In this document: positions 8,991 to 54,868 of the stretch, piece by piece
How the letters are laid out: every line of letters begins with the position of its first letter
Numbering within the stretch: the first letter of the stretch is position 1
Assembly: GCA_964016885.1 (NCBI GenBank)
Contig: OZ024766.1
Coordinates: 7,936,001 to 8,000,000 of the forward strand
DNA: 64,000 nucleotides
Direction of reading: 5' to 3'
DNA from: Eledone cirrhosa
Lineage: Eukaryota
Made by a program: the position numbers and the translations under genes
The notes under the pieces: model-generated
Told to the model about the DNA's origin: nothing
Seen by the model: only the letters and a program-made list of their open reading frames with translations
Databases searched by the model: none

Positions 8991-9118
8991 ACACACACAT
9001 ATATATATATATATACATACATACACAGACACATATATATATACATATATATATATATATGTATACATACACACACATATATATACATACACACACACAC
9101 ACATATATATATATACAT

Positions 9119-9213
<95 letters not shown>

Positions 9214-9338
9214 TACATATATATACATACACACACACACACACACATATATATACATATATACATATATACACCGACAGACACTCCCACACAATCATAC
9301 TAAGCTGAACTGAAGACTCTGGGACACCATGACACACG

Positions 9339-9369
<31 letters not shown>

Positions 9370-9457
9370 TTCTCCCCCTGCTCCCCTCCCTCGCCTTTTG
9401 TCTTCTTCAGTCTTCTCAAGAAGGAAATAATAAAGACGATTTAATTAGATTAATGAA

Positions 9458-10020
9458 GAGAGAGAGAGTTTGTGGGAGGGAAGGGGGCGAGTTAGTGGGG
9501 TGGGTGGGGTGGAGAGAGGATTAGTGGGAGGCGAGTGGGGGAGAGAGGGAGAGTTAGTGCGAGTGGGGGGTGGTGGTGGAGCGAGAGGGTTGGTGGAAGG
9601 GAAGTGGAGAGAGGGAGATGGTGGGGGTGAGAGAGAGAGAGAGAGTTTGTGGGAGGGAAGGGGGCGAGTTAGTGGGGTGGGTGGGGTGGAGAGAGGATTA
9701 GTGGGAGGCGAGTGGGGGAGAGAGGGAGAGTTAGTGCGAGTGGGGGGTGGTGGTGGAGCGAGAGGGTTGGTGGAAGGGAAGTGGAGAGAGGGAGATGGTG
9801 GGGGTGAGAGAGAGAGAGAGAGTTTGTGGGAGGGGATGGGGCGAGTTAGTGGGGGGGGGGGGGTGGAGAGAGAGAAGATTAGTGGGGTGGGGGTGGCGAC
9901 AGAGGGTTGGTGGAAGGGCGGTGGGGGTGGGGAGAGGGAGTTAGTGAGGGTGAGTTAGTTGGGGTGGGGTGGAGAGAGAGAGAGGGTTGGTGGGAGGGGA
10001 GTGGAGAGAGAGAGAGAGAG
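9458..10020. repeat. G-rich purine tract with a ~177-bp tandem duplication
   Basis: 59-aa period in ORF 9470..9958; many GGG runs. Confidence 0.85.
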
Positions 10021-24321: not shown

Positions 24322-24363
<42 letters not shown>

Positions 24364-24483
24364 AAGAGATGAGATGTCAACATCAAAGGGCCTATTATTT
24401 TTCTCTAAAGACATTTTTTTGCAATTCTGTCCCGCCCCGCCCCGCCCCGCCCGTCCCTTCAATCTTACTAATTTCTCATTCTT

Positions 24484-24519
24484 TCTTCTGATGAAGGACT
24501 AGCGTCCGAAACGTTAAGA
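24484..24519 (+). ncRNA. Minimal type I hammerhead ribozyme motif (Penelope-like), copy 1
   Basis: TCTT-CTGATGA-A-GGAC(TAGC)GTCC-GAA-ACGT-T-AAGA: stem I TCTT/AAGA, 4-bp stem II, palindromic ACGT in place of stem III. Confidence 0.75.
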
Positions 24520-24610
24520 CACTCTTTCTGCTATTTCAAGTGTTAACCTAATATATTCCTTCCATATACTGTACTGATTGTGTTGTTATTTCTGTTTACC
24601 TTTTACATAC

Positions 24611-24646
<36 letters not shown>

Positions 24647-24713
24647 ATATATGTATATATATATATCAATTCCAACCCACCCGTCCCCTCAATCTATCTT
24701 ATTCCTCATTCTT

Positions 24714-24749
24714 TCTTCTGATGAAGGACTAGCGTCCGAAACGTTAAGA
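24714..24749 (+). ncRNA. Minimal type I hammerhead ribozyme motif, copy 2
   Basis: Identical motif 230 nt downstream, within a tandem ~160-bp duplication (~24447-24607 and ~24680-24837). Confidence 0.75.
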
Positions 24750-24900
24750 CCCTCTTCCAGCTATTTCAAGCGTTAACCTAATATATCCCTTCCATATACT
24801 GTACTGATTGTGTTGTTATTTCTGTTTACCTTTTACATATATACACATATATAAAATAACAGGAGGCTGGACTGGTGTAATTCCATAAAGATTTATTATA

Positions 24901-24955
24901 CTATGAACATTTCAATGACCGGGTTCAGTGTGAATCTGGTGACATCATCAGGTAT
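24901..24955 (-). ncRNA. Degenerate hammerhead-like motif
   Basis: Minus strand CTGATGA-TGTCACCAGATTCA(CAC)TGAACCCGGTCATT-GAAATGTTC; long imperfect stem II; stem I not evident. Confidence 0.45.
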
Positions 24956-25169: not shown

Positions 25170-25506
25170 GGAGGCACATGGCTTAGTAGTTAGAGCATTG
25201 GGTTTGCAATCAAAAGGTTGTGAGTTCAATTCTCAGACCAGGTGATGTGTTGTTTCCTTGGGCAAGACACTTTATTTCACATTGCTCCAGTTTACTCAGC
25301 TGTAGAAATGAGATGATAGGGACTGTGGTCCCTATCATTCCACTGTAAAGTGGTCGTGGAGGTGCCATGGCAAAAAAGCACCCAGCACTCAATGTAAATG
25401 AGGTTGGTGTTAGGAAGGGCATCCAGCTGTAGAAATCAAGCCAGAATCAGTTCCCGTCCCACCCTTGCAAGCAGGGAAAAGCGAACGTAAATGATGATGA
25501 TGATGA
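25170..25506 (+). mobile_element. Full-length tRNA-derived SINE (family B) with CORE/Meta-like box and RTE-derived tail
   Basis: A-box TGGCTTAGTAGTTAGAGC (25179), B-box GAGTTCAATTCTC (25222), CCTTGGGCAAGACACTT (25256), 11-bp hairpin at 25313-25338, tail CCTTGCAAGCAGGGAAAAG...(GAT)n. Confidence 0.92.
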
Positions 25507-25524
25507 TATATATATATATATAGT

Positions 25525-25728
25525 CGTGTAGGAAACACGGTAAAAAGGCTCCCAGTCCATACTGTAAACATGGTTAATGTTAGGAAGGGCATCCAGCCAT
25601 ATAAAACCTGCCAGATAGTCCTATACGAGCGAGACACGGTCACCTGATCAATCTTGCCTCAGGTGGGACAATTCCCATCTAACCCATGCTAGCGTGGAAG
25701 ATAGGTGTTAAACGATGATGATGATGAT
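25525..25728 (+). mobile_element. 3' half of an RTE-tailed SINE
   Basis: TAGGAAGGGCATCCAGC core and AACCCATGCTAGCGTGGAA..(GAT)n tail. Confidence 0.8.
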
Positions 25729-25765
25729 ATATACATATATATATGTATATATATATATGTGTATG

Positions 25766-26257
25766 TCATCATCATCATCATCAACGTTTAACGTCCGTGT
25801 TCCACGCTTGCATGGGTTTGGACGGGGGTTTTCCCACTTGAGGCAAGAGTGGTTGTCTTGCTCGCATAGGACTGTCTGGCAGGTTTTCTATAGCTGGATG
25901 CCCTTCTTAACACCAACCACGTTTACAGTGTGGGTCTGGGAGGTTTTTACCGTGTTACCTACACGGCCACATTACAGCGTGGACTGTCTGGCGTGTTTTC
26001 TACAGCTGGATGCCCTTCCTAACACCAACCACATTTACAGTGTGGGGCTGGCAGGTTTTTACCGTGTTGCCTACACGGCCACATTACAGCGTGGACTGTG
26101 TGTTTTTTTGTCATGACACCTACACGATCTCATTTGTTTCGGCCTGGATGGTGTGGCACCAACATAACTTTACATAGAAGGGGGCGGTGTGGATGGGGTG
26201 GAGGTGGTGGGACGGGGGTGTATTTTGTTAGAGATGCCTACTGACTGTAGTAGGTTT
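25766..26257 (-). mobile_element. Family A SINE-like element with two 112-bp units
   Basis: GGACTGT at 25869, 25981 and 26093; flanks as in 217-600. Confidence 0.88.
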
Positions 26258-26429
26258 TAATGTATATATATTGGTTTCTTATATAGGCACAAGGCCAGCA
26301 ATTTTGGGGGGAGGGGAAGTGAATTAATTCGACCCCATTTCATGACTGGTACTTTATTGCATCTCTCTAAGGTGTGTGTGGTTTGCTGTTCTTGTGTCAA
26401 ATAGACCTCAAAGCGGCGCAATATAAAGG

Positions 26430-54822: not shown

Positions 54823-54868
54823 AATTGCCCTGATGAGTCCTTAATAGGACGAAACATTGTCGGCTAAT
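54823..54868 (+). ncRNA. Canonical type I hammerhead ribozyme
   Basis: ATTGCC-CTGATGA-GTCCT(TAAT)AGGAC-GAA-AC(ATT)GT-C-GGC(T)AAT: complete core, G10.1-C11.1 pair, GUC site; predicted cleavage after 54861. Confidence 0.88.

What the first reader, a model, noticed from the sequence alone, without database searches (positions are those of the whole stretch)
24447..24837. Tandem pair of identical minimal hammerheads 230 nt apart, suited to dimeric cleavage
Seen: two copies of TCTT-CTGATGA-A-GGACTAGCGTCC-GAA-ACGT-T-AAGA. Stem III is replaced by loop-less palindromic ACGT and cannot close as a monomer. The motif is identical in both copies while the flanks differ at several positions. Known: minimal Penelope-type HHRs cleave as dimers. 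Inference: one transcript could fold a double hammerhead and release a ~230-nt unit RNA, possibly a circularisable retrozyme-like monomer.
Basis: partly seen in the sequence, partly recalled or inferred. Interest (0 to 1): 0.75.

Follow-up and report, generated by a model that had tools for sequence, protein, structure and literature searches.

The report
Two stacked Penelope retrotransposon ends
The two self-cutting-RNA (hammerhead) motifs are real, but they sit in the leftover tail ends of two truncated copies of a very common Penelope-type jumping gene, so the locus is likely an ordinary footprint rather than a source of circular RNA.

Summary
Observation confirmed: identical type I minimal hammerheads at 24484-24519 and 24714-24749, 230 nt apart. 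Each lies in the 3' end of a Penelope-like retrotransposon (RT, CX4CxxC linker, C-terminal GIY-YIG; Neptune/Nematis type). The 32-nt core occurs 2,559 times, almost always solo. The two copies have different 5' ends, are joined by a microsatellite, and differ mostly at subfamily-marker sites (5 of 11), so they are not units of one repeat. The double-hammerhead fold can be drawn but is predicted to be rare. One loose end: the same junction recurs in a second intact pair 376 kb away, so it was copied once. Known kind; the scan reached like verdicts on other DNA. Cleavage and expression are untested.

The parts
24322..24363 (.). (TA)n microsatellite 5' of copy 1, likely the insertion target
   Evidence: target role inferred from PMC8557442 passages
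24363..24606 (+). Copy 1: 5'-truncated 3' end (pseudo-LTR region) of a Penelope-like element; starts about 101-125 nt before the core in window letters, at the family's commonest 5' end
   Evidence: aligns to the 3' end of L171 from reference position -101
24484..24519 (+). Minimal type I hammerhead 1: stem I 24484-87/24516-19, core 24488-94, extra A 24495, stem II 24496-99/24504-07, GAAA 24508-11, ACGT 24511-14, predicted cut after 24515
24607..24666 (.). (AT)n(GT)n(AT)n spacer: tail of copy 1 and junction to copy 2; the same junction recurs at L119
24667..24836 (+). Copy 2: shorter 5'-truncated end of the same family, different subfamily alleles
24714..24749 (+). Minimal type I hammerhead 2, identical to the first; predicted cut after 24745
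24837..24853 (.). AT-rich tail after the family's fixed 3' end

Best explanation
The locus holds two 5'-truncated 3' ends of a high-copy Penelope-like retrotransposon, each with the element's standard minimal hammerhead, and they likely came to lie head to tail by insertion or DNA copying into the microsatellite tail of one copy rather than by rolling-circle copying of a 230-nt RNA circle. Shown: the unit is the end of an element of at least 2.7 kb with RT, CX4CxxC linker and C-terminal GIY-YIG; copies share a fixed 3' end followed mostly by (AT/AC)n and have varied 5' ends; most are solo. Inferred: copies arose by target-primed reverse transcription that stopped early, with a bias for (TA)n; the hammerhead was kept by selection on the active parent elements, and inserted stubs decay neutrally. 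If transcribed, the pair would cleave weakly at best without the element's protein.
For: Family size: 2,559 exact cores; 10 of 38 unbiased copies keep the exact core (read), which suggests roughly 10,000 copies. Linkage: 16 of 19 loci found by protein alone carry the unit; in 11 of 11 extended loci it lies about 0.7-0.9 kb behind the endonuclease region (partial in L176). RVT_1 in 3 and GIY-YIG in 2 of 13 fragments scanned, below curated cut-offs. Solo state: 3 direct and 3 inverted two-hammerhead pairs in 130 unit-bearing loci of 133; the direct partners are 69-82% alike. 3' end followed by microsatellite in 26 of 32 ends matched. Different lineages: 5 of 11 differences fall on 7 polymorphic sites, P = 1e-5. 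No core excess: 94/1368 vs 223/3296, P = 0.90; non-CpG 3.5% vs 4.1%; a 32-nt flank word of one subfamily has 1,860 exact copies. Other direct pairs have broken cores: both copies in L170 and in L120. Fold: ensemble -71.7 free vs -49.3 kcal/mol with dimer helices held.
Against: The junction (spacer make-up, 5' cut point, rare C at 24704) is shared with L119, 376 kb away, whose flanks are not colinear and whose two cores are intact; only 3 such junctions exist and the third is solo. So simple independent stacking does not explain both loci. The two catalytic boxes alone are somewhat better kept than flank (27/570 vs 223/3296, P = 0.08), and none of 7 polymorphic sites lies in the hammerhead (P = 0.16). 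Pfam hits are below cut-off and PDB searches found no RT. No full-length element with an upstream pseudo-LTR was recovered. Tandem pairs were not counted genome-wide; one search scored 40 of 4,081 candidates. ViennaRNA does not model the catalytic core.
Confidence: 0.82

Rival explanations
1. Nascent retrozyme: the pair, once formed, was transcribed from the pseudo-LTR start in copy 1, and the dimer (or a circle cut from it) was reverse-transcribed by the Penelope enzyme to make the second locus.
For: Shared junction and rare allele at L119, four intact cores, L119 has a 5' inversion typical of these elements. Copy 1 starts at the family's 5'-end peak (37 of 86 ends within -110 to -91). Pair meets the operational 'two complete hammerheads' rule of bioRxiv 2026.07.22.740005.
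Against: Only two loci. Copy 1 here differs from L119 copy 1 by 7 substitutions, more than copy 2 does (4), and L119's two copies differ by 5 plus gaps: not what one template gives. Dimer stems have pairing probability near 0. That preprint saw cleavage in 1 of 9 predicted dimers.
Confidence: 0.1
2. Local tandem duplication of one solo copy by unequal recombination between its flanking microsatellites, followed by mutation.
For: This route is seen at L170, where both copies share private changes. Copies 1 and 2 are identical over 24558-24606, including a minority T at 24575.
Against: Different 5' ends; differences concentrate on subfamily sites; partners are not nearest neighbours. It could hold only with added conversion from another locus.
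Confidence: 0.06
3. Assembly artefact joining two alleles or loci through the microsatellite.
For: Repeat-rich region; no contig laid spans even one whole copy.
Against: The same junction stands at a second locus with other flanks and other letters.
Confidence: 0.02

Closest known systems
Minimal hammerheads (min-HHR) in pseudo-LTRs of metazoan Penelope-like elements (Cervera and De la Pena 2014, PMC4209133; parts 1-2 of 4 read)
   Same: Type I, 4-bp helix I, unpaired base between 9 and 10.1, G10.1-C11.1, palindromic 15.2-16.2 with no loop 3; mostly solo motifs from truncated elements; some inverted pairs.
   Different: Helix II is 4 bp (7-8 bp in the Schistosoma families described); cut triplet is GUU; this family was not matched to a named entry.
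EN+ Penelope-like elements, Neptune or Nematis clade (Craig et al. 2021, PMC8557442; passages)
   Same: RT then CX2-5CxxC linker then C-terminal GIY-YIG with two cysteines inside; 5' truncation, 5' inversions, microsatellite targets, hammerhead near the 3' end.
   Different: Clade not fixed by a tree; only the non-coding end is present in the window.
Metazoan non-LTR retrozymes (Cervera and de la Pena 2020, PMC7229834, passages; Li et al. bioRxiv 2026.07.22.740005, parts 1-3 of 5)
   Same: Two type I hammerheads head to tail, unit 230 nt, GC 32%, sequence derived from a pseudo-LTR.
   Different: Minimal, not canonical, hammerhead; no arrays; units unequal; unit poorly self-paired apart from the microsatellite; no RNA evidence.
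PAc Poseidon element of Anolis (PMC11167929; passages)
   Same: Pseudo-LTR hammerhead with stems I and II only; AT-rich targets.
   Different: There cleavage was shown to need the element's protein and was not needed for insertion in vitro; untested here.

Membership tests
Minimal type I hammerhead (min-HHR) | CUGANGA and GAAA boxes, U16.1-H17, helices I and II | tested here: met
Minimal type I hammerhead (min-HHR) | Extra base after A9, G10.1-C11.1, palindromic 15.2-16.2 | tested here: met
   sequence against PMC4209133
Minimal type I hammerhead (min-HHR) | Self-cleavage as a dimer | not testable with these tools
   fold prediction unfavourable; needs an assay
Minimal type I hammerhead (min-HHR) | Covariation in helices across the family | tested here: inconclusive
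   one dominant sequence, scattered single changes in 38 copies
EN+ Penelope-like element | RT followed by C-terminal GIY-YIG upstream of the hammerhead-bearing end | tested here: met
   in genomic relatives; Pfam scores below curated cut-offs
EN+ Penelope-like element | CX2-5CxxC linker (Neptune/Nematis) and cysteines within GIY-YIG | tested here: met
   linker motif in 9 of 11 extended loci; translations
EN+ Penelope-like element | 5' truncation, 5' inversions, microsatellite targets | tested here: met
EN+ Penelope-like element | Full element flanked by two pseudo-LTRs | tested here: inconclusive
   none of 11 extended loci shows a close upstream pseudo-LTR; all may be truncated
EN+ Penelope-like element | RT phylogeny places it in a named clade | not tested
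   no reference set held; PDB searches blank
Non-LTR retrozyme | [quoted passage not shown] | tested here: met
Non-LTR retrozyme | A family of head-to-tail repeats of one fixed non-coding monomer | tested here: not met
Non-LTR retrozyme | Canonical hammerhead with 6-bp helix I and loop 1-loop 2 contacts | tested here: not met
   helix I 4 bp, no helix III against PMC7229834 passages
Non-LTR retrozyme | Abundant monomer linear and circular RNA | not testable with these tools
   needs RNA reads

The most novel reading that the evidence does not exclude
A retrozyme caught at birth: two stacked Penelope ends formed a double hammerhead whose junction has already been moved once as RNA, giving two intact dimers 376 kb apart, so that chance stacking in a microsatellite is the first step from pseudo-LTR to mobile tandem unit.
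Probability: 0.1. Interest if true: 0.45.

Novelty: new member of a known kind. Interest (0 to 1): 0.14.

Why it matters
As found it matters little: Penelope ends with minimal hammerheads are common in animal genomes and pairs are expected now and then in a family of this size. It is a useful caution that a 'two hammerheads in tandem' rule will file such stacks as retrozymes. If the shared junction with L119 proved to be RNA-borne, the pair would be a small, testable model for how retrozymes arise from Penelope ends.

Tried and rejected
Rfam scans: only microsatellite noise among the 150 of 324 rows shown for the window, no hammerhead on the unit. Sequencing runs: no RNA holder listed; three contig sets of one sample were laid, 9,048-9,718 contigs each, which shows abundance only and nothing on RNA ends or circles. 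PDB searches with one RT fragment and with a 6-sequence profile gave no RT match. The Atlas did not hold the RT fragment. A genome-wide count of tandem pairs was not obtained; estimates rest on listed places and fetched loci. Segmental duplication between this locus and L119 rejected: no colinear flank matches in 30 kb. A tandem subfamily marked by the rare C allele rejected: of 30 of 32 loci fetched, only this locus and L119 are close tandems of this subfamily. Paper search 'hammerhead' + 'octopus' listed 20 of 51 papers, none on such a family; this does not show that the family is unpublished, and Repbase/Dfam were not available. Lunse et al. (PMC5785218) was not held; only its title was seen. 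Supplements of the cited papers were not opened; those of PMC4209133 and PMC8557442 may list this family. Rows dropped: 11 duplicate loci; rows with more than 12 unaligned columns (96 kept); L048, L133, L157, L158.

Full report
Observation. The two motifs are there, with cores at 24488 and 24718. They read as type I hammerheads with a 4-bp helix I, an extra A after the first box, a 4-bp helix II and a loop-less ACGU in place of helix III; the double-hammerhead pairing uses 20 Watson-Crick pairs. This matches the min-HHR description in PMC4209133 (parts 1-2 of 4 read). Rfam does not detect it. The cut triplet is GUU, recalled as a slower triplet than GUC (no call).

What carries them. A search of the window's own genome (3.0 Gb; host not established, the repeat landscape is recalled as octopus-like) returned 2,746 candidates for the unit and 2,559 exact copies of the 32-nt core against 0 for the control. 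Copies end at one 3' point, followed by microsatellite in 26 of 32 ends matched, and start at varied 5' points, with a peak of 37 of 86 at 91-110 nt before the core. [quoted passage not shown] Pfam gave RVT_1 for 3 and GIY-YIG for 2 of 13 fragments, all below cut-off. Of 19 loci found by protein alone, 16 carry the unit. By the criteria in PMC8557442 (passages) this is an EN+ Penelope-like element of Neptune or Nematis type; no tree was built.

Is the 230 nt a unit? Copy 1 starts near 24363-24371 and copy 2 at 24667; 60 nt between them are microsatellite. Five of the 11 differences fall on the 7 sites polymorphic across the family (P = 1e-5), and each copy has many closer relatives elsewhere (ranks 41 and 61 of 95; 29 of those rows were chosen for likeness to copy 1). 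Among the first 100 listed exact cores none has a same-strand neighbour within 1 kb and two pairs are inverted. In 130 unit-bearing loci there are 3 direct pairs, each with a distant-subfamily partner, and 3 inverted pairs. With about 10,000 copies (2,559 divided by 10/38; my estimate), roughly 8 same-strand pairs within 500 nt are expected by chance alone, more with a bias for (TA)n tails.

Selection on the core. In 38 copies picked by upstream DNA or protein, the hammerhead differs from the majority at 94/1368 cells and the 3' flank at 223/3296 (P = 0.90); the catalytic boxes alone give 27/570 (P = 0.08); 26 of 38 keep the boxes intact. Without CpG and polymorphic sites the rates are 3.5% and 4.1%. 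Identity of the two cores here has P = 0.056 by chance.

Could it cleave? The free ensemble of 24440-24840 is -71.7 kcal/mol, against -49.3 with the dimer helices held; helix II has probability 0.003-0.03 and cross-copy helix I about 0. The program ignores core contacts, so this is a weak test. Published min-HHR dimers cleave poorly, the Anolis PAc hammerhead needs the element's protein (PMC11167929 passages), and 1 of 9 predicted Xenopus dimers cleaved (bioRxiv 2026.07.22.740005). The 230-nt piece owes its stability mostly to the microsatellite hairpins (z = -2.0).

Loose end. A search with the junction found two other close pairs among 40 scored of 4,081 candidates. L120 has another junction and both cores changed. 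L119, 376 kb away on the same contig, shares the spacer make-up, the 5' cut point and a rare allele, has both cores intact and a 5' inversion, but no colinear flanks. Only 3 such junctions exist; the third is solo. The four copies form a mosaic that no single template explains, so ectopic DNA copying and read-through retrotransposition both stay open. L170 shows a third route, local duplication, with both cores broken alike.

Verdict. Real motifs, known kind, most likely inert stacked ends. Earlier notes of this scan reached like readings in other genomes; they are unchecked AI notes, and one prompted the 5'-end count. Interest 0.14.

Noticed in passing
window 54827-54866 (+), core at 54830: A second hammerhead family, closer to canonical (3-bp helix I, 4-bp helix II, short helix III). 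2,461 exact copies of a 26-nt word; among the first 100 listed, 18 back-to-back pairs 0.7-5.4 kb apart and 3 direct pairs 4.6-4.8 kb apart, which suggests an element of about 4.7 kb with two pseudo-LTRs.
   Followed up: partly
window 16163 (-) and 16271 (+); also 8740 (+), 38302 (+), 55518 (-), 24951 (-): Hammerhead-like cores of another repeat family; the pair near 16.1-16.3 kb forms a long inverted repeat, and the one at 24951 lies about 100 nt behind copy 2 on the other strand.
   Followed up: no
family 5' ends, window 24363-24371; L171 3' end: 37 of 86 stubs begin 91-110 nt before the core, about 70 nt behind a pyrimidine-rich AG that looks like a splice acceptor; may mark the start of the element's RNA.
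   Followed up: partly
L170:750-1360 (G000:C1:19524000-19526200): Direct tandem of this family, 390 nt apart, both copies with the same two core changes: local duplication through microsatellites.
   Followed up: yes
L065 (G000:C6:25530000-25539999): A 4.6-kb block holding two hammerhead-bearing ends of different subfamilies is duplicated nearly exactly.
   Followed up: no
window 25178-25400 and 25340-26260: SINE-like and other common repeats, some shared with the L119 neighbourhood in a different order.
   Followed up: no
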